Below, piece after piece: positions 51,263 to 59,837 of a DNA stretch of 64,000 nt. Below the pieces are notes generated by a model. It worked only from the letters and a program-made list of their open reading frames with translations. It ran no database searches and was not told the DNA's origin. A program made the position numbers and the translations under genes. The stretch is from assembly GCA_965223505.1 (NCBI GenBank), contig CBDCWP010000007.1:32001-96000 (forward strand), read 5' to 3'. Position 1 is the first letter of the stretch. Each line of letters opens with the position of its first letter. This DNA is from Planctomycetota bacterium. Its GTDB lineage: Bacteria > Planctomycetota > PLA2 > JAEUHO01.

Positions 51263-52819
51263 CTACTCGTTGGGACCGAACGACTTCTCGAGCGTTCCCT
51301 TGAAGCCCTGCAGCGCGCAGCGCTGCATGTAGAACCCGCACCCGCGCAAGCCGCCCAGCTCCTCGCCGCCTCCCGCGCGACCGGGACCGCCGTGAATCAT
51401 CGCCGGCAACACCATCCCCGGCGGCAACGACTGCTCCGCCATCTTGTCACTGCCGACCCACAGGCGCCCGTGCCACGGCGCCATCTCCAGCACCGCCTGC
51501 TCCTGCCACGACGGATCGTTCGCGTACACGCTGCTCACCAGTCCACCCTGGCCCAACGCGACGATTCGCGCGGCGTCGGCCGCGTCACCGCTGTACGGCA
51601 ACACCGTCGCAACCGGACCGAACACCTCCTCCTCGTGGAAGACGTCCGCCCCCGCGTCGTTGGCCATCACCAACGTCGGCGCGACGAAGTACCCCCGGTC
51701 CGCGATCGGACCCGCGCCGCCCGTCACGATCGATCCCGCACCCGCGAGCTTCTCGATCCCCGCCCGTACGTCGCGCAGCTGCGCCGCGCTCGCCAGCGGA
51801 CCCATCGTCGTGTCCGCCGAAGACGGATCGCCCGTCGCAATCGCCTCGAGCTCGGCGACGAGCTCGTCGCGGACCCCGTTCACACGGTCCTGCGGCACCA
51901 GGATGCGGCGCACGGCCGTGCACTTCTGCCCCGTCTTCTGCCGCATGTCGAGCACGACGTTCTTGATGAACAGTCGATACGTCTCGCTGTCCGGATCCAC
52001 GTCCGGCGCGAGCACCGCCGCGTTCAGCGAGTCGGCCTCGACGTTGAACCGGACGCTGTTGCGCAGGATGTTCTCGTTCGACCGCAGCTTGAACGCCGTC
52101 CATGCCGACCCCGTGAAGGCCACGCTGTCCTGCGGGCCCAGACGATCGAGCAGATCTCCGGGCATCCCCGCGACGAACTGGAACGCGCCTTCCGGCAGGA
52201 TGCCGCTCTCGATCGCGATCTGCGCGATCCGCCATGCGACCAGCGCGGTGGGGGTGCCCGGCTTCTCGATGACCGGCACGCCCGCGAGCAACGCGCACGC
52301 CGCCTTCTCCATCATGTTCCATGCCGGAAAGTTGAACGCGTTGATGTGCACCGCCGCGCCGCGCAAGGGCGCCAGGATGTGCCGGCCCCAGAAACGCGCG
52401 GTGCGGCCGAGCTGGACGCCCTCGCCGTCCGTGAGGAAGTTGCGCTCTCCGACCGACTTCCCGAAGTAGGCGTAGGCCGCCAGCGTGCCCGTCGCGCCGT
52501 CGATGTCGAACTTCCCGTCCTTGCGCGTCGTCCCCGTATTGCTGACGGACAGGTCCAGCAACTCCTCCCGATGCTCGAAGATCACGCCCGAGAGCGCCTT
52601 CAGCATCTCGCCCCGGGAAGCGAAGGTCATCGCGCGCAGCGCCGGGCTCCCGACGGTGTGCGCGTGGGCGAGCACCGCGCCCCAGTCGATGCCGTCCGTG
52701 TTGCACTCGGCCATCTGCTCTTCAGTCGTGGCGTTGTGAAGCGGCGTGGGCTCGCCGGTGCCCGTGTGCCACGTGCCGGCCACGTAGCTCGTCAACGTCT
52801 GTGTCATCGTGGTGCTCAT
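51263..52819 (-). CDS. PaaZ/BoxD-type aldehyde dehydrogenase (no MaoC domain)
   Basis: INAFNFP, FTGS, EADSLN, GQKCTA.RR, HGGPGRAGGGEELGG. Confidence 0.85.
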   Translation of the reverse strand: MSTTMTQTLTSYVAGTWHTGTGEPTPLHNATTEEQMAECNTDGIDWGAVLAHAHTVGSPALRAMTFASRGEMLKALSGVIFEHREELLDLSVSNTGTTRKDGKFDIDGATGTLAAYAYFGKSVGERNFLTDGEGVQLGRTARFWGRHILAPLRGAAVHINAFNFPAWNMMEKAACALLAGVPVIEKPGTPTALVAWRIAQIAIESGILPEGAFQFVAGMPGDLLDRLGPQDSVAFTGSAWTAFKLRSNENILRNSVRFNVEADSLNAAVLAPDVDPDSETYRLFIKNVVLDMRQKTGQKCTAVRRILVPQDRVNGVRDELVAELEAIATGDPSSADTTMGPLASAAQLRDVRAGIEKLAGAGSIVTGGAGPIADRGYFVAPTLVMANDAGADVFHEEEVFGPVATVLPYSGDAADAARIVALGQGGLVSSVYANDPSWQEQAVLEMAPWHGRLWVGSDKMAEQSLPPGMVLPAMIHGGPGRAGGGEELGGLRGCGFYMQRCALQGFKGTLEKSFGPNE

Positions 52820-55651: not shown

Positions 55652-56689
55652 ATGAGACTCGCCACCGTTCTGTTCCTGTTGCTCCTGTTCCCCGGCCTTC
55701 CGGCGATTGCCGAAGAAGGCGACGAAGAGGAGAAGCCCAAGGGCGAAGAGGGGGAGCGGCCGGGCGGTCCCGGCGGCCGGCGCGGCGGTCCGGGCGCGGG
55801 GCGCGGCGGCATGGGCCGCGGCGGCTCGATGTGGGACCGCGTTCGTCGCTTCGACAAGGACGGCGACGGCAAGGTCACGGCCGAGGAATTCACGGGCCCG
55901 CAGCGCTTCTTCGACCGGATGGACACCGACGGCGACGGCTGCATCACCAAGGACGAGGCCGAGGCGATGCGCGGCGGCCGCGGTCAGGGCGGCGGTGGCC
56001 GCGCGGGCGGTCTGAGCCCCACTGCGATCGACACCGACAAGGACGGCAAGGTCTCGCAGGCCGAGTGGACGGCGTGGTTCGAGAAGGCCGACAAGAACGG
56101 CGACGGCGAGGTGGACACCCACGAGTGGGCCGCGGCCTCGACGGGGCGGGCGCTTCGCGATCCCGCGCCGAAGGTCGGCGACGCCGCGCCCAAGGTCGAA
56201 GTCGAGTCGCTGAAGACCCGCAAGCTCGTCGACTTGAGCGCGCCGAAGCGCACCACGGTGCTGATCTTCGGCTCCCACACCTGAGGGCCGTTCACGAAGC
56301 AGGCGGATCGTCTGCAATCGGTCTACGAGGCATACAAGGACAAGGCCGATTTCTATCTCGTCTACATCCGTGAAGCGCACGCGAGCGACGGCTGGCGACC
56401 TGCCTCGCACGTCGACATTCCGCAGCCGACGTCGTTCGACGAGCGCTCGGGCGTTGCGGGCAGCTGCTCCGAGGCGCTGAAGCTCACGATGGAGTTCCTC
56501 GTCGACGACATGAAGGACACGGTCGCCAAGGCGTACAACGCCCATCCCGACCGGTTGTTCATCCTCGGCGCGGATGCCAAGGTCGCGTACCGCGGCGACC
56601 GTGGTCCGCGCGGCTTCAAGGTCGACGAGATGGAAGCCGCGTTGAAGAAGATCGTCGCGGCGTCCGAGACGACCGAGTCGAACGGCTAG
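55652..56689 (+). CDS. Secreted EF-hand + iodothyronine-deiodinase-like selenoprotein (Sec at TGA 56282-56284)
   Basis: Four EF-hand loops; FGSHT-TGA-GPF then in-frame YLVYIREAHASDGW, VDDM...V..AY.AHPDRLF, G.RGP.GF to TAG 56689. Confidence 0.88.
56299..56315 (+). promoter_or_regulatory. Candidate bacterial SECIS hairpin
   Basis: GCAGGCG-GAT-CGTCTGC stem-loop starting 14 nt after the UGA; G at the start of the loop. Confidence 0.6.
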
Positions 56690-57026
56690 GTAGGGGGGTG
56701 ACCCTCGTGGTCGCCCAACCGTTCGTCGATCGTGCACGGAGGCATGGCCGGTTGGGCAGCCACAAGGGCTGCCCCTACATGCGATTCGTCACGTGATCGT
56801 GCACGACACCTGTAGGGGGGGGGACGACCCTCGTGGTCGCCCACCGTTCGTCGATCAGGCACGGAGGCATGGCCGGTTGGGCAGCCACAAGGGCTGCCCC
56901 TACATGCGATTCGTCACGTGATCGTGCACGACACCTGTAGGGGGGGACGACCCTAGTGGTCGCCCACCGTTCGTCGATCAGGCACGGAGGCATGACCAGT
57001 TGGGCAGCCACAAGGGCTGCCCCTAC
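56690..57026. repeat. Tandem array of three REP doublets (BIME/REPIN-like), period 122-125 bp
   Basis: Units start with GTAG at 56690, 56812, 56937; each ends GGGCAGCCACAAGGGCTGCCCCTAC; identical linkers. Confidence 0.9.
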
Positions 57027-57027
57027 G

Positions 57028-57933
57028 CTACAGCCAATCCCGCGGCCGCAGGAACTCCGCGTACAGCCGCGCCTCCTCGGAGCCTTTCTCCGGCGACCAG
57101 TCGTAGCGCCACGTCGCGACCGGGGGAAGCGACGCCAGGATCGACTCCGTGCGGCCGCCTGACTGCAGCCCGTAGCGCGTCCCGCGGTCGTAGAGCAGGT
57201 TGAACTCGACGTAGCGGCCGCGGCGGTACGCCTGGAACGCGCGTTCGCGCTCGCCGTACCGCGCGTCCTTGCGACGCCGCAGGATCGGCAGGTAGGCCGG
57301 CAGAAACGCGTCGCCGACGCTTCGCCAGTAGGCGAACGATCTGTCGAACCCGCCTTCGGTGAAGTCGTCGAAGAACAACCCACCGATGCCGCGCGGTTCG
57401 TCGCGGTGGGGCAGGAAGAAGTACTCGTCGCAAGCGCGCTTGTGGCGCGCGTAGAGATCCTCGCCGAACGACGCACAGGCTTCGTGGGCCGTTCGATGCC
57501 AGTGCCGCGCATCTTCCTCGAAGCCGTAGTACGGCGTGAGGTCGAACCCGCCGCCGAACCACCAGTCGTCGACGGCGCCGTCACCGATGAGGAACGCGCG
57601 GAAGTTGGCGTGGGTCGTCGGCGCGAAGGGGTTGCGCGGATGCACGATGACGGAGACCGACAGCGCCTGGAAGGGCTTGCCCGCCAGCTTCGGCCTGCGC
57701 GCCGTCGCGGCCGGCGCCAGCGACGCGCCGAGCGCATGGGAGAAGTTCACTGCGGCGCGTTCGAGAACGTCACCGCCGCTCAGGATGCGCGGGCGCGCGA
57801 ATCCGCCGCGCTCTCCCGGCAGCTCGTCGCGCCGAAACGCGGCCGAGGGCTCTTCCTCCTCGAGGGCCGCGCAGACACGGTCCTGAAGATCCAGCAGGTA
57901 CTCGCGAATGGCGTCCGGGTCGGGCGCGGTCAT
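57028..57933 (-). CDS. hemF: Oxygen-dependent coproporphyrinogen III oxidase
   Basis: [47 protein letters not shown]. Confidence 0.95.
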
Positions 57934-58619
57934 GCCGGGGATTGTCCCGAGAGCTTCGCTCGCAACCAAGCGCCGATGCGTTGCAGCTCCTCGCCGCAGA
58001 CCTCGTGCTGCATGGGATACGCGTGCCACTCGACGTCGTAGCCGGCGGCCCGCAGCGCCTGGCACGTGCTCTCTCCGCGCTCGAACACGACCATCGGGTC
58101 GAAGTGCCCGTGGCACTGCAGGATCGGGATCGAGAGGTTCGCGTCGGAGCGTTCGCTCTCGAGCGTCTCTCCGGCGACCAGGTAGGTCGAGAGCGCCACG
58201 ATCCCGGCCAGCGGCTCCAGGTGCCGCAGCCCGAGGTGAAGCGCAACCGCGCCGCCCTGCGAGAAACCGGCGAGCACGATGCGCCGCGCATCGATGCCGT
58301 TCGCGCGCTCGCGCGCCACCAGCTTTTCCACCGCGGCGGCGGATGCGCGCAGTCCGGACTCGTCGTGACGGTTGGCGAGGTCCTCGTCGCGGATGTCGTA
58401 CCAGGCCGGCATCACGAAACCGGCGTTGAGCGTGACCGGGATCGACGGCGCGGTCGGGAAGACGAACCGCACGGTGTGATCGGCCGGCAGTCCCAAGTAG
58501 GGCAGCGCAGGCACGAAGTCGTTGCCGTCCGCTCCCAGTCCGTGCAGCCAGATCACGGTCGCGTCGGCGGCGGCCGGCGGATCGACCTCCACACACGGCA
58601 GCAGGCTCGTGTCGTTCAT
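57930..58619 (-). CDS. Phospholipase/carboxylesterase (alpha/beta hydrolase)
   Basis: HGLGADG, AWYDI, GFSQGG, HG..D, H. Confidence 0.9.
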
Positions 58620-58655
58620 CGGCGCAACGGTACGGGAACCACTAGACTGAGCGGC

Positions 58656-59837
58656 ATGGATCCCGAGTACCGCAGCGACATCAACCGCGACGTCGCGCCC
58701 GCCGGCGCGGACGAGTTCGACCCGCTGCAGATCGGGCCGCTCGAGGTCTGGCCGCCGGTCGTCCTCGCACCGATGGCCGGCGTGACCAACTACCCCTTCC
58801 GCAAGCTCTGCAAGGAATACGGCGCAGGGCTCTACGTGAGCGAGATGATCACGGCGCGCGGGATCGTCAACGAGCATCCCAAGTCGCTCAAGCTCGCCGA
58901 CTTCGGACCGGACGAGTCGCCGCGCTCGCTGCAACTCTACGGCGTCGAGCCGGTTTCGATGCGCGAGGCCGCGCGCCGGCTCGCGTCGGACGGGCGCGTC
59001 GATCACATCGACCTCAACTTCGGCTGTCCGGTGCGCAAGGTGACCTCGAAGGGCGGGGGCAGCGCGATCCCCGCCAAGCCGAAGCTGCTCGCCAAGCTGG
59101 TCGGCGCGACGGTCGAAGGCGCGCGCGACGTACCGGTCACGATCAAGTTCCGCATGGGCATCGACGAAGACCTGATGACCTACCTCGACGCCGGCCGTGT
59201 CGGCGAGGAGCAAGGGTGCGCGTCGGTCGGGCTGCACGCCCGCACGGCGGCGCAGCTCTACGACGGCGAAGCGCGCTGGGAGGCGATCGCCGAGCTCAAG
59301 CAGGCCGTGACGTCGATTCCGGTGCTCGGCAACGGGGACATCTGGGAGGCGCAGGACGCGTTGCGCATGATGCGCACGACCGGCTGCGACGGCGTGATCG
59401 TCGGTCGCGGATGCCTCGGCCGGCCCTGGCTCTTCCGCGATCTCGCGGACGTCTTCGACGGGCGGGAGCCCCGAAATCCCCCCAACTTCGGCGAGGTGGC
59501 GCAGATCCTGCTGCGTCACGCGCACTTGATGAGCGATTGGTTCGGCGCATGGCGCGGCATGCTGATGATGCGCAAGTTCGTCGCGTGGTACACGAAGAGC
59601 TTCCCCGGCGGCGCCGCGCTCCGACACCGGCTCGTGAAGGTCGAGTCGATCGAGGAGCTGGAGAAGGGGTTGAAGGAGATCGATCCGGAAACGCCGTTTC
59701 CGCCGGCCGGCATGCGCGTGCGACGCGGGAAGACCTCGGGCACGCAGAAGGTGCACCTACCCGACGGGTACCTCGACGACCTCGATGACGACACGCCGCC
59801 GGGCCGAGCCGCGGAAGCACTGGTGTCGGGCGGGTAG
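58656..59837 (+). CDS. dusB: tRNA-dihydrouridine synthase B
   Basis: LAPMAG, NFGCP, HART, GNGDI, GRG.LG.PW. Confidence 0.9.
   Translation: MDPEYRSDINRDVAPAGADEFDPLQIGPLEVWPPVVLAPMAGVTNYPFRKLCKEYGAGLYVSEMITARGIVNEHPKSLKLADFGPDESPRSLQLYGVEPVSMREAARRLASDGRVDHIDLNFGCPVRKVTSKGGGSAIPAKPKLLAKLVGATVEGARDVPVTIKFRMGIDEDLMTYLDAGRVGEEQGCASVGLHARTAAQLYDGEARWEAIAELKQAVTSIPVLGNGDIWEAQDALRMMRTTGCDGVIVGRGCLGRPWLFRDLADVFDGREPRNPPNFGEVAQILLRHAHLMSDWFGAWRGMLMMRKFVAWYTKSFPGGAALRHRLVKVESIEELEKGLKEIDPETPFPPAGMRVRRGKTSGTQKVHLPDGYLDDLDDDTPPGRAAEALVSGG

What the first reader, a model, noticed from the sequence alone, without database searches (positions are those of the whole stretch)
55652..56689. Hidden selenoprotein: secreted EF-hand / deiodinase-like enzyme read through an in-frame UGA
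Seen: the ORF track stops at TGA 56282-56284, but the same frame continues with no stop to TAG 56689 and takes in the 66-aa ORF at 56489. The joined 345-aa protein has a signal peptide, a Gly/Arg linker, four EF-hand loops (DKDGDGKV, DTDGDGCI, DTDKDGKV, DKNGDGEV) and FGSHT-[UGA]-GPF...VYIREAHASDGW...VDDM...AHPDRLF. Established: iodothyronine deiodinases have FGSxT-U-PPF and YIxEAHxxDGW, with Sec at exactly this position, and bacterial deiodinase-like selenoproteins have been reported. Inference: an exported, possibly Ca2+-regulated selenoenzyme (reductive dehalogenase or redoxin) with a non-canonical U-G-P-F active site, which standard annotation would split or call a pseudogene.
Basis: partly seen in the sequence, partly recalled or inferred. 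Interest (0 to 1): 0.9.

Follow-up and report, generated by a model that had tools for sequence, protein, structure and literature searches.

The report
Exported EF-hand deiodinase-like selenoprotein gene
This is one gene for an exported calcium-binding redox enzyme of the deiodinase family whose in-frame UGA almost certainly encodes selenocysteine; gene callers cut it in two, but bacterial selenoproteins of this family have been known since 2005.

Summary
ATG 55652 to TGA 56282-56284 continues in frame to TAG 56687-56689, giving 345 aa: a signal peptide, four canonical EF-hands and a T4_deiodinase domain (112 bits against a cutoff of 27).

The UGA is very likely selenocysteine:
- In 31 of 31 loci (30 other PVC-group genomes plus the window), TGA follows TVL[IV]FGS[HW]T.
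- The post-UGA frame shows coding-type divergence.
- 118 of 125 relatives covering that column have Cys.
- A hairpin 21 nt downstream shows compensatory changes and fits the published bacterial SECIS model.

Mouse Dio2 and Dio3 are the best structural matches.

Not shown: Sec machinery (none in the 64-kb window; the rest of the genome was out of reach), selenium incorporation, substrate, and any calcium effect.

"U-G-P-F" is not unusual, because C-G-P-F is common in Cys relatives. EF-hand fusion is also common: 34 of 48 long relatives carry it, and NCBIfam NF038285 covers such proteins.

Most likely this is a periplasmic selenol oxidoreductase with a peroxiredoxin-like cycle (U211 plus conserved C272). 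It is a new member of a known family, of moderate interest.

The parts
55652..56689 (+). Whole selenoprotein gene: 345 codons plus the TAG stop, with Sec at codon 211
   Evidence: translation with TGA=U. M1 aligns with the N-termini of 25 homologs.
55652..55711 (+). Predicted Sec-type signal peptide, residues 1-20 (MRLATVLFLLLLFPGLPAIA, probable cleavage after AIA, no lipobox Cys)
   Evidence: Read from the sequence. An equivalent N-terminal hydrophobic segment is present in the 30 of 31 loci whose N-terminus lies inside the contig (L011 is cut at the contig start). No signal-peptide predictor was available, so this is an inference.
55712..55828 (+). Acidic then Gly/Arg-rich low-complexity linker, residues 21-59
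   Evidence: AlphaFold pLDDT is below 50 for residues 14-56.
55853..55888 (+). EF-hand loop 1, D68-E79 (DKDGDGKVTAEE)
   Evidence: Pfam EF-hand_1/5/6/7 above cutoffs with four stretches. Loop positions 1, 3, 5, 6, 8 and 12 are canonical, read.
55922..55957 (+). EF-hand loop 2, D91-E102 (DTDGDGCITKDE)
56030..56065 (+). EF-hand loop 3, D127-E138 (DTDKDGKVSQAE)
56090..56125 (+). EF-hand loop 4, D147-E158 (DKNGDGEVDTHE)
56171..56650 (+). Deiodinase-like thioredoxin-fold catalytic domain, residues 174-333
   Evidence: PF00837 at 112 bits. 4TR3 at E=3.9e-21. Foldseek top hits 9H48 and 4TR3 at about 1e-13. pLDDT is mostly above 90.
56282..56284 (+). In-frame UGA, predicted selenocysteine U211, in FGSHT-U-GPF
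   Evidence: TGA at this column in 31 of 31 loci. Cys in 118 of 125 relatives. It aligns with Sec170 of Dio3.
56299..56315 (+). Candidate bacterial SECIS hairpin GCAGGCG-GAU-CGUCUGC: 7-bp stem, 3-nt loop starting with G, loop 21 nt after the UGA, -10.1 kcal/mol
   Evidence: Covariation across 31 loci. Compared with the bSECIS constraints in the Fig. 2 legend of PMC13188914.
56465..56467 (+). Codon of C272, candidate resolving cysteine
   Evidence: At least 90% conserved in the Sec clade. Cys in 114 of 148 relatives. It lies in helix 262-276 of the model. The role is inferred.
56687..57069 (+). Three tandem copies (period about 125 nt) of a hairpin-forming repeat, starting at the stop codon. 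Not part of the coding sequence; possibly a transcript end or stabiliser.
   Evidence: No intrinsic terminator was found by the consensus scan.

Best explanation
The region 55652-56689 is a single gene for an exported, calcium-binding selenoprotein of the bacterial deiodinase-like family (PF00837). The window's closest relatives are from Planctomycetota.

Supported by comparative evidence:
- The UGA at 56282-56284 is not a stop. It is decoded as selenocysteine, with a short hairpin 15-33 nt downstream (56299-56315) acting as the bacterial SECIS.

Inferred from sequence:
- A Sec-type signal peptide sends the protein to the periplasm or outside the cell.
- There the four canonical EF-hands are probably always loaded with Ca2+. 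They would then serve as a structural or positioning module rather than a switch.

Inferred mechanism:
- U211 sits at the N-terminus of the first helix of the thioredoxin fold. It attacks an electrophilic atom of a small substrate.
- The resulting Se-OH or Se-X intermediate is resolved by the conserved C272 to a selenenylsulfide.
- An extracytoplasmic thiol system then reduces that bond. This is the peroxiredoxin-like cycle proposed for animal deiodinases.

The substrate is unknown. My pick is a hydroperoxide or similar oxidant (about 0.4), ahead of a halogenated phenolic (about 0.25).

My odds for the layers are: Sec decoding about 0.9, the U211/C272 redox pair about 0.6.
For: Recoding:
- All 25 short homologs fetched end in FGSHT or FGSWT. 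I picked them for their length of 189-216 aa.
- In genome DNA, 30 of 45 loci found with a pattern that did not specify the next codon carry the motif. All 30, plus the window, have TGA next, followed by GPF...YIxEAH. The other 15 loci are EF-hand-only matches.
- 27 of 31 have 125-144 open codons after the TGA.
- Divergence after the UGA is 0.26/0.22/0.54 at codon positions 1/2/3, against 0.37/0.31/0.64 before it. Synonymous to non-synonymous codon differences are 4775:5761 in frame and 1144:9803 in the +1 frame control (30 loci).
- Of the 150 best of 2683 relatives, 125 cover the column: C 118, W 2, S 2, L 1, A 1, G 1. The other 25 start just after it.
- TGA is otherwise a normal stop here. 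25 of 46 coding-like ORFs end in TGA. One is an RND permease whose match runs to profile position 1007 of 1009.

SECIS:
- For the named helix, 83.9% of cells are paired, against 20-52% when the partner is slid.
- 16 cells have changes on both sides, against 1-5 in slid controls.
- The covariation score is 0.298, against at most 0.076 in slid controls. 0 of 500 shuffles reach it.
- Folded alone, the segment forms the hairpin in 31 of 31 loci. 19 of 31, including the window, meet all five published constraints.

Family and fold.

Residues:
- Dio3 Ser167, Thr169, Sec170, Tyr197, Glu200, His202, Trp207 and Arg275 correspond to S208, T210, U211, Y238, E241, H243, W248 and R317 (residue names from PMC11592359).
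- C272 is conserved.

Redox context: some relatives are fused to CMD/AhpD-like or AhpC/TSA domains.

Sec use in the phylum: selA, selB and selD are reported in several Planctomycetes (PMC4807772, passages).
Against: - No selA, selB or selD among the 38 window ORFs scanned. No tRNA-Sec in the window or in the 30 loci.
- RNAalifold did not recover the hairpin as its consensus. It proposed a 4-bp helix at the UGA instead.
- With the MFE fold of a 39-nt piece, only 12 of 31 loci meet all five SECIS constraints. With the fixed segment, 12 of 31 miss the energy limit, at -5.1 to -7.4 kcal/mol.
- The hairpin overlaps conserved codons (QAGRLQ), so part of its conservation could be at the protein level. 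No Cys-form DNA was in hand as a control.
- Rfam at gathering thresholds gave only tRNA-Val.
- The locus set was seeded from proteins already cut at the UGA, so Cys forms with another upstream motif were not sampled.
- L017 has a frame change and L030 a second in-frame stop.
- Mechanism: Dio3 His219 of the proton relay is Pro259 here. The Dio3 proximal Cys168 and distal Cys239 are His209 and Met280.
- No reductant or partner gene is conserved nearby.
- The distance between U211 and C272 in the model could not be measured, because no coordinates were available.
- AhpC/TSA is matched only marginally, 26.4 bits against a cutoff of 26.
Confidence: 0.7

Rival explanations
1. It is the same selenoprotein, but its job is reductive dehalogenation. 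U211 removes iodine or bromine from halogenated phenolic compounds, such as those made by marine algae, as animal deiodinases do with thyroid hormones.
For: - Dio2 and Dio3 are the best structural matches, about five orders of magnitude ahead of generic thioredoxin-fold proteins.
- The Dio-specific loop segment EAHxxDGW and the Arg275 equivalent R317 are retained (roles from PMC11592359).
- Two sulfatase genes lie elsewhere in the window, which fits a polysaccharide-degrading lifestyle.
Against: - The proton-relay His219 is Pro in this protein and in 123 of 149 relatives.
- The 2005 paper itself expected a different, redox function for the bacterial forms (PMC1088965).
- No bacterial member with shown dehalogenase activity turned up in my searches (titles and abstracts of the listed papers only).
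- Domain fusions in relatives point to peroxiredoxin-type partners.
Confidence: 0.2
2. It is the same selenoprotein, but it acts as a periplasmic thiol-disulfide oxidoreductase on protein substrates, like ResA, TlpA or DsbE. It would not act on small molecules.
For: - After Dio2 and Dio3, the next structural matches are ResA, StoA, SdbA and DsbE-like proteins.
- It is exported (signal peptide).
- There are weak Redoxin and Thioredoxin_8 hits.
Against: - There is no CxxC or UxxC motif. Position +3 is Phe.
- The Redoxin and Thioredoxin_8 matches are below their cutoffs.
- The conserved second Cys is 61 residues away, which fits a peroxiredoxin-type resolving Cys better than a thioredoxin-type one.
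Confidence: 0.15
3. The UGA is read through, but not as selenocysteine. A near-cognate tRNA would insert Trp, Cys or Arg, either because the organism lacks Sec machinery or because the hairpin only slows termination.
For: - Sec machinery was not found in the window.
- Two representatives have W and one has G at the column.
Against: - Cys, the usual counterpart of Sec, holds the column in 118 of 125 relatives.
- The position is the catalytic Sec of Dio2 and Dio3.
- The hairpin fits the bSECIS model in loop size, loop G and spacing in 31 of 31 loci.
- The W and G cases are more simply gene calls made under code 4 or code 25. This is an inference and was not checked.
- Sec machinery exists in the phylum (PMC4807772).
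Confidence: 0.05
4. The UGA is a true stop. The gene encodes a 210-aa secreted EF-hand protein, and the downstream deiodinase-like part is a decaying remnant or a separate small ORF.
For: This is how gene callers annotate it (P0002 and P0005). A 66-aa ORF with its own ATG exists at 56489.
Against: - A truncated product would end in the middle of a thioredoxin-fold domain, one residue before its nucleophile.
- The post-UGA frame is kept open and under coding-type selection in 27 of 31 genomes of two phyla.
- The Pfam match runs across the UGA.
Confidence: 0.03

Closest known systems
Prokaryotic deiodinase-like selenoproteins (PF00837), first reported from the Sargasso Sea metagenome (Zhang, Fomenko and Gladyshev 2005, PMC1088965) and listed in the 2022 and 2026 reviews (PMC9312934, PMC13188914)
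   Same: A bacterial T4_deiodinase-domain protein with an in-frame UGA at the catalytic position, Cys-containing homologs, and a bacterial SECIS directly downstream. The function is unknown and presumed to be redox.
   Different: - The reviews' tables give the motif as UxxC. This clade has U-G-P-F with the conserved Cys 61 residues downstream.
- Neither an N-terminal EF-hand module nor PVC-group hosts are mentioned in the passages I read. 'EF-hand', 'Planctomyc' and 'Verrucomicrob' have 0 occurrences in PMC13188914.
NCBIfam NF038285 'deiodinase family protein' (hypothetical equivalog, 347 positions)
   Same: The catalytic half is the same (profile positions 174-341, 211 bits). 9 of the 10 long Cys-form relatives tested match the model end to end at 364-492 bits, and most carry EF-hands.
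   Different: The window protein and its Sec-clade relatives match only the C-terminal half and stay below the 250-bit cutoff. They have Sec instead of Cys, and their N-terminal EF-hand module is a different one.
Mouse iodothyronine deiodinases Dio3 (4TR3/4TR4) and Dio2 (9H48), catalytic cores
   Same: The fold, including the Dio insertion. Sec is at the same position after Ser-x-Thr. Tyr, Glu, His202, Trp207 and Arg275 equivalents are retained.
   Different: - There is no N-terminal membrane anchor. It has a cleavable signal peptide plus EF-hands instead.
- His219 is Pro, the proximal Cys168 is His, and the distal Cys239 is Met.
- A different conserved Cys (C272) is present.
- It uses a bacterial SECIS inside the coding region rather than one in the 3' UTR.
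SELENON (selenoprotein N) of animals
   Same: By analogy only: an extracytoplasmic (ER-luminal) protein that combines an EF-hand with a Sec-containing thioredoxin-type domain. Ca2+ binding tunes its redox action (PMC10650576, passages).
   Different: The domain family is unrelated. SELENON has a single atypical EF-hand and is a membrane protein. No homology was detected, and Ca2+ control has not been shown for the bacterial protein.
Peroxiredoxins (AhpC/TSA; 2-Cys and Ahp1 types)
   Same: A thioredoxin fold with an N-terminal beta module. The nucleophile lies at the helix N-terminus after a Ser/Thr, and a separate resolving Cys is expected. There is a marginal PF00578 match (26.4 bits against a cutoff of 26). 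Bcp structures appear among the fold hits.
   Different: Sequence similarity is weak, with no peroxiredoxin in the PDB sequence search at E up to 1. The usual PxxxTxxC motif (recalled) is absent. Peroxidase activity is untested.

Membership tests
Prokaryotic deiodinase-like selenoprotein (PF00837) | T4_deiodinase domain above Pfam's gathering score | tested here: met
   112 bits against 27, residues 174-333.
Prokaryotic deiodinase-like selenoprotein (PF00837) | In-frame UGA at the catalytic position, aligned with Cys in homologs and with Sec in Dio | tested here: met
   Cys in 118 of 125 relatives. Aligns with Sec170 of Dio3. TGA in 31 of 31 loci.
Prokaryotic deiodinase-like selenoprotein (PF00837) | Bacterial SECIS directly downstream: loop 3-9 nt, stem at least 4 bp, G in the first two loop positions, 16-37 nt from the UGA, MFE at most -7.5 kcal/mol (PMC13188914, Fig. 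2 legend) | tested here: met
   The window has a 7-bp stem, loop GAU, 21 nt spacing and -10.1 kcal/mol. 19 of 31 loci meet all five constraints and 12 of 31 fail on energy only. RNAalifold did not recover the hairpin.
Prokaryotic deiodinase-like selenoprotein (PF00837) | Sec machinery (selA, selB, selC, selD) in the same genome | not testable with these tools
   None in the 64-kb window. The machinery is reported in other Planctomycetes (PMC4807772).
Prokaryotic deiodinase-like selenoprotein (PF00837) | Redox motif UxxC, as tabulated for the family's representative in the reviews | tested here: not met
   The motif is U-G-P-F. This is a descriptor of one representative rather than a definition. 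CGPF is the commonest form among the Cys relatives.
Animal iodothyronine deiodinases (Dio1-3) | Thioredoxin fold with the Dio-specific insertion | tested here: met
   9H48 and 4TR3 are the top Foldseek hits, TM 0.73 on the target. The sequence alignment is continuous through the insertion.
Animal iodothyronine deiodinases (Dio1-3) | Complete proton relay: Ser, Thr, Tyr, Glu, His202 and His219 (PMC11592359) | tested here: not met
   Five of the six are kept. His219 aligns with Pro259. The position is Pro in 123 of 149 relatives and His in 9.
Animal iodothyronine deiodinases (Dio1-3) | N-terminal transmembrane anchor | tested here: not met
   The N-terminus is a signal-peptide-like segment followed by a linker and EF-hands. 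This was read from the sequence; no topology predictor was used.
Animal iodothyronine deiodinases (Dio1-3) | Deiodination of iodothyronines | not testable with these tools
   Needs an enzyme assay.
NCBIfam NF038285 deiodinase family protein | Whole-protein score at or above the curated cutoff of 250 bits | tested here: not met
   211 bits, on profile positions 174-341 only. Full-length Cys forms score 364-492 bits.
EF-hand calcium-binding domain | Pfam EF-hand models above cutoff, and 12-residue loops with D/N at positions 1, 3 and 5, G at 6, a hydrophobic residue at 8 and E at 12 | tested here: met
   EF-hand_1 67 bits, EF-hand_5 68.6, EF-hand_6 60.2 and EF-hand_7 44.7. All four loops are canonical by inspection. 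Ca2+ binding itself is untested.
Peroxiredoxin (AhpC/TSA, PF00578) | Match above the gathering score, and the peroxidatic motif | tested here: inconclusive
   26.4 bits against 26. No peroxiredoxin in the PDB sequence search. The motif comparison rests on recall.
Lanmodulin (NF053806) | Score at or above the cutoff of 135 bits | tested here: not met
   30.9 bits.

The most novel reading that the evidence does not exclude
The EF-hand module is a real switch. On this reading the protein is a bacterial counterpart of SELENON: an extracytoplasmic selenoenzyme whose activity or oligomeric state follows external Ca2+. It would be used by surface-attached PVC bacteria to detoxify algal halogenated phenols or oxidants. 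The Verrucomicrobial branch, which lacks EF-hands, would be the unregulated form.
Probability: 0.1. Interest if true: 0.7.

Novelty: new member of a known kind. Interest (0 to 1): 0.35.

Why it matters
It gives a concrete, well-supported case of a selenoprotein that current gene callers cut in two. At least one NCBI record names the N-terminal half simply 'EF-hand domain-containing protein'.

It also defines a coherent Sec clade in Planctomycetota and Verrucomicrobiota, with a conserved SECIS that could be used to correct those annotations.

The family has had no assigned function for twenty years. An exported form with Sec, a conserved second Cys and a Ca2+-binding module is a convenient entry point for biochemistry. 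The finding does not open a new kind of system.

Tried and rejected
- RNAalifold on the 31 aligned post-UGA segments did not return the hairpin. I therefore tested a helix I named myself, which weakens that test somewhat.
- My first SECIS script judged only the MFE fold of a 39-nt piece and undercounted, giving 12 of 31. It was replaced by folding the fixed segment. Both numbers are reported.
- Rfam at gathering thresholds gave nothing but tRNA-Val.
- Neighbourhood clustering of 324 ORFs from 31 loci found no conserved partner. A PaaZ-like aldehyde dehydrogenase recurs in only 4 loci, at varying distances.
- tRNA-Sec scans of the window and of 30 loci were empty. This says little, given flanks of at most 10 kb.
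- A search for Cys-form paralog DNA among the loci, to serve as a hairpin control, found none.
- The PDB sequence search with the catalytic domain alone gave no peroxiredoxin alignment. The idea that R301 equals the peroxiredoxin catalytic Arg stays unsupported and is not used.
- A reassigned genetic code (TGA as Trp or Gly) was rejected because 25 of 46 coding-like ORFs end in TGA.
- Lanmodulin and XopAW were rejected on score.
- No sigma-70 promoter or intrinsic terminator was found.
Full report
**Observation.** The sequence is as described.
- ATG is at 55652 and TGA at 56282-56284.
- The same frame stays open for another 134 codons to TAG 56687-56689.
- Read with TGA=U, the product is 345 aa. 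Its parts, in order:
  - a hydrophobic N-terminus ending in AIA;
  - an acidic then Gly/Arg-rich linker;
  - four EF-hand loops that are canonical at positions 1, 3, 5, 6, 8 and 12;
  - FGSHT-U-GPF ... VYIREAHASDGW ... VDDM ... PDRLF.
- A whole-window scan for TGA codons with coding-like open frames on both sides found only this site and one transposase-like junction.

**Family.**
- Pfam gives T4_deiodinase at 112 bits (cutoff 27) over residues 174-333, across the UGA. The four EF-hand models also score above their cutoffs.
- NCBIfam's NF038285 'deiodinase family protein' matches only with its C-terminal half, at 211 bits against a cutoff of 250.
- By sequence, the only solved relatives of the catalytic part are mouse Dio3 (4TR3, E=3.9e-21) and Dio2 (9H48).
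- An AlphaFold model built on 24 family rows has mean pLDDT 81.8, with the catalytic domain mostly above 90.
- Its best Foldseek matches are 9H48 and 4TR3 at about 1e-13. ResA-, Bcp- and DsbE-type thioredoxin folds follow at about 1e-7 or weaker.

**Is the UGA decoded? Protein evidence.**
- The word-indexed protein search returned many relatives of 189-216 aa that cover only the first 61% of the query.
- I fetched 25 of them, chosen for that length. All 25 end in FGSHT or FGSWT, as does the window's own call P0002.
- A Cys-form relative (P0041) reads FGSYTCPPF at that point.
- I searched 1.84 billion representatives with the catalytic part and found 2683 relatives. Of the best 150, 125 cover the column: Cys 118, Trp 2, Ser 2, Leu 1, Ala 1, Gly 1.
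- The other 25 begin a few residues after the column, as post-UGA fragments would.

**Is the UGA decoded? DNA evidence.**
- A scan of one genome per species used patterns from the N-terminal halves. The pattern did not fix the following codon. It gave 45 loci.
- 30 of them carry TVL[IV]FGS[WH]T. In all 30, and in the window, the next codon is TGA and the frame goes on with GPF...YIxEAH.
- The other 15 loci are EF-hand-only matches.
- 27 of 31 have 125-144 open codons after the TGA. L004 and L028 run off their contigs. L017 changes frame and L030 has a second in-frame stop.
- Across 30 loci, divergence in the 36 codons after the UGA is 0.26/0.22/0.54 at codon positions 1/2/3. In the 36 codons before it the values are 0.37/0.31/0.64.
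- Synonymous differences are 45% of differing codons in frame and 10% in the +1 frame control.
- TGA is an ordinary stop in this genome. 25 of 46 coding-like ORFs end in it, including genes with end-to-end family matches.

**SECIS.**
- The 48 nt from the UGA align without gaps in all 31 loci.
- I named a helix pairing columns 18-23 with 29-34, which is 56299-56304 with 56310-56315 in the window.
  - 83.9% of cells are paired, against 20-52% when the partner is slid.
  - 16 cells changed on both sides, against 1-5 in slid controls.
  - The covariation score is 0.298, against at most 0.076 in slid controls. 0 of 500 shuffles reach it.
- Stems such as CAGGC/GCCUG, CAGAC/GUCUG, CAAGC/GCUUG, GUUGC/GCAAC and GAUGC/GCAUC replace one another.
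- The published bacterial SECIS model asks for five things (PMC13188914, Fig. 2 legend):
  - a 3-9 nt loop;
  - a stem of at least 4 bp;
  - a G in the first two loop positions;
  - 16-37 nt between the UGA and the loop;
  - an MFE of at most -7.5 kcal/mol.
- Folded alone, the segment forms the hairpin in 31 of 31 loci, with a 3-5 nt loop, the G, and 20-21 nt spacing.
- 19 of 31 also pass the energy limit, including the window (7 bp, loop GAU, -10.1 kcal/mol). The other 12 reach only -5.1 to -7.4 kcal/mol.

**SECIS, evidence against.**
- RNAalifold did not return this helix.
- The MFE fold of a longer 39-nt piece passes all five constraints in only 12 of 31 loci.
- Rfam found nothing.
- The hairpin lies in conserved codons, and I had no Cys-form DNA as a control.

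**What could not be shown.**
- The window holds no selA, selB or selD among 38 scanned ORFs and no tRNA-Sec. The loci flanks hold no tRNA-Sec either.
- Sec machinery is reported for several Planctomycetes (PMC4807772, passages). That paper's S9 table of selenoprotein candidates, read whole, lists no deiodinase-like gene.

**Shape of the family.**
- The 26 complete Sec forms make one clade in a FastTree of 133 catalytic domains over 180 columns, rooted at the midpoint. Support is 0.93 and no Cys form lies inside.
- Two Cys forms are its sisters.
- I left out L004, L011, L017, L028 and L030, and also representatives that did not span the domain.
- Twelve members carry EF-hands: the window, L001 and L003-L011 from Planctomycetota, and L002, which is labelled Verrucomicrobiota.
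- Nineteen members from Akkermansiaceae and other Verrucomicrobiales are signal peptide plus catalytic domain only, mostly 191-199 aa.
- EF-hand fusion is not special to the Sec clade. Of the 48 longer relatives I scanned, 34 combine EF-hand and T4_deiodinase.
- 9 of 10 such proteins match NF038285 end to end.
- Other relatives are fused to CMD/AhpD-like, AhpC/TSA plus HEAT, TPR, or ceramidase-like domains.
- No neighbouring gene is conserved. In the window the neighbours are a cNMP-binding Ser/Thr kinase upstream and DusB downstream.

**Active site.** Residue roles are taken from passages of PMC11592359.
- Retained: Dio3 Ser167, Thr169, Sec170, Tyr197, Glu200, His202, Trp207 and Arg275 correspond to S208, T210, U211, Y238, E241, H243, W248 and R317.
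- Not retained: His219, the proximal Cys168 and the distal Cys239 are P259, H209 and M280.
- Y, E and H are nearly universal in the 150 relatives. Pro at the His219 position is the rule, in 123 of 149.
- A cysteine at C272 is present in 114 of 148 relatives and in at least 90% of the Sec clade.
- C272 lies in helix 262-276, and U211 lies at the start of helix 212-228.
- G and P are about equally common at position +1 (55 and 53 of 125).

**Mechanism (inferred).**
- The protein is exported.
- U211 attacks an electrophilic oxygen or halogen.
- C272 resolves the Se-OH or Se-X intermediate to a selenenylsulfide.
- An extracytoplasmic thiol system regenerates the enzyme.
- I favour an oxidant such as a hydroperoxide over a halophenol. 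My reasons are the peroxiredoxin-type fusions in relatives, the missing relay histidine, and the remote resolving Cys. The odds are close.
- Outside the cell Ca2+ is rarely limiting. The EF-hands are therefore more likely structural than regulatory. SELENON shows that the regulatory alternative is possible (PMC10650576).

**Novelty.**
- Bacterial Sec and Cys deiodinase-like proteins with bacterial SECIS elements were described in 2005 (PMC1088965, passages). They are listed in the 2022 and 2026 reviews.
- I found no paper on an EF-hand-fused or PVC-group Sec form in four full-text searches. I saw only titles, abstracts and the passages named. Subscription journals are not covered.
- This is a new member of a known family.

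Noticed in passing
window 56687-57069: Three tandem copies (period about 125 nt; 107-nt core at 100%, 97% and 64% identity) of a GC-rich element with 27-nt inverted arms. They start exactly at the gene's stop codon and look like REP- or MITE-type repeats.
   Followed up: partly
window, minus strand, around 21958: The only other in-frame TGA between two coding-like frames. The flanking peptides look like an IS3-type transposase orfA/orfB junction, which is a frameshift site rather than a selenoprotein. The family name is from recall.
   Followed up: no
L017:10025-10541 and L030:3247-3750: The copy in the Roseibacillus persicicus isolate (L017) changes frame inside the catalytic domain. L030 has a second in-frame TGA 37 codons after the first. 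These could be pseudogenes, sequencing errors, or a second recoding event.
   Followed up: partly
L010:6216-6389: A second, partial copy of the catalytic-domain sequence lies at the contig end, about 1.6 kb downstream of the first.
   Followed up: no
proteins P0192, P0268 (W) and P0237 (G): These representatives have Trp or Gly at the Sec column, in an otherwise typical FGSxT-x-GPF motif. They are probably UGA read under genetic code 4 or 25 by a gene caller, so further Sec forms may exist outside the clade studied.
   Followed up: no
proteins P0190, P0227, P0177, P0233, P0246, P0149: Some relatives fuse the deiodinase-like domain to other domains: CMD/AhpD-like, AhpC/TSA plus HEAT, TPR, or a ceramidase-like domain. 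P0177, P0189 and P0227 start just after the Sec column, so they are post-UGA pieces with extra C-terminal domains.
   Followed up: partly
window 51263-52819 (minus strand); also L007, L030, L031: A PaaZ-like aldehyde dehydrogenase lies within a few kb of the gene in 4 of 31 loci, at varying distance and orientation. This is probably coincidence.
   Followed up: partly
window 57942-59837: The DusB match covers only residues 264-581 of the 631-aa ORF. The true start is probably far downstream of the first start codon, which leaves a long non-coding stretch after the repeats.
   Followed up: no
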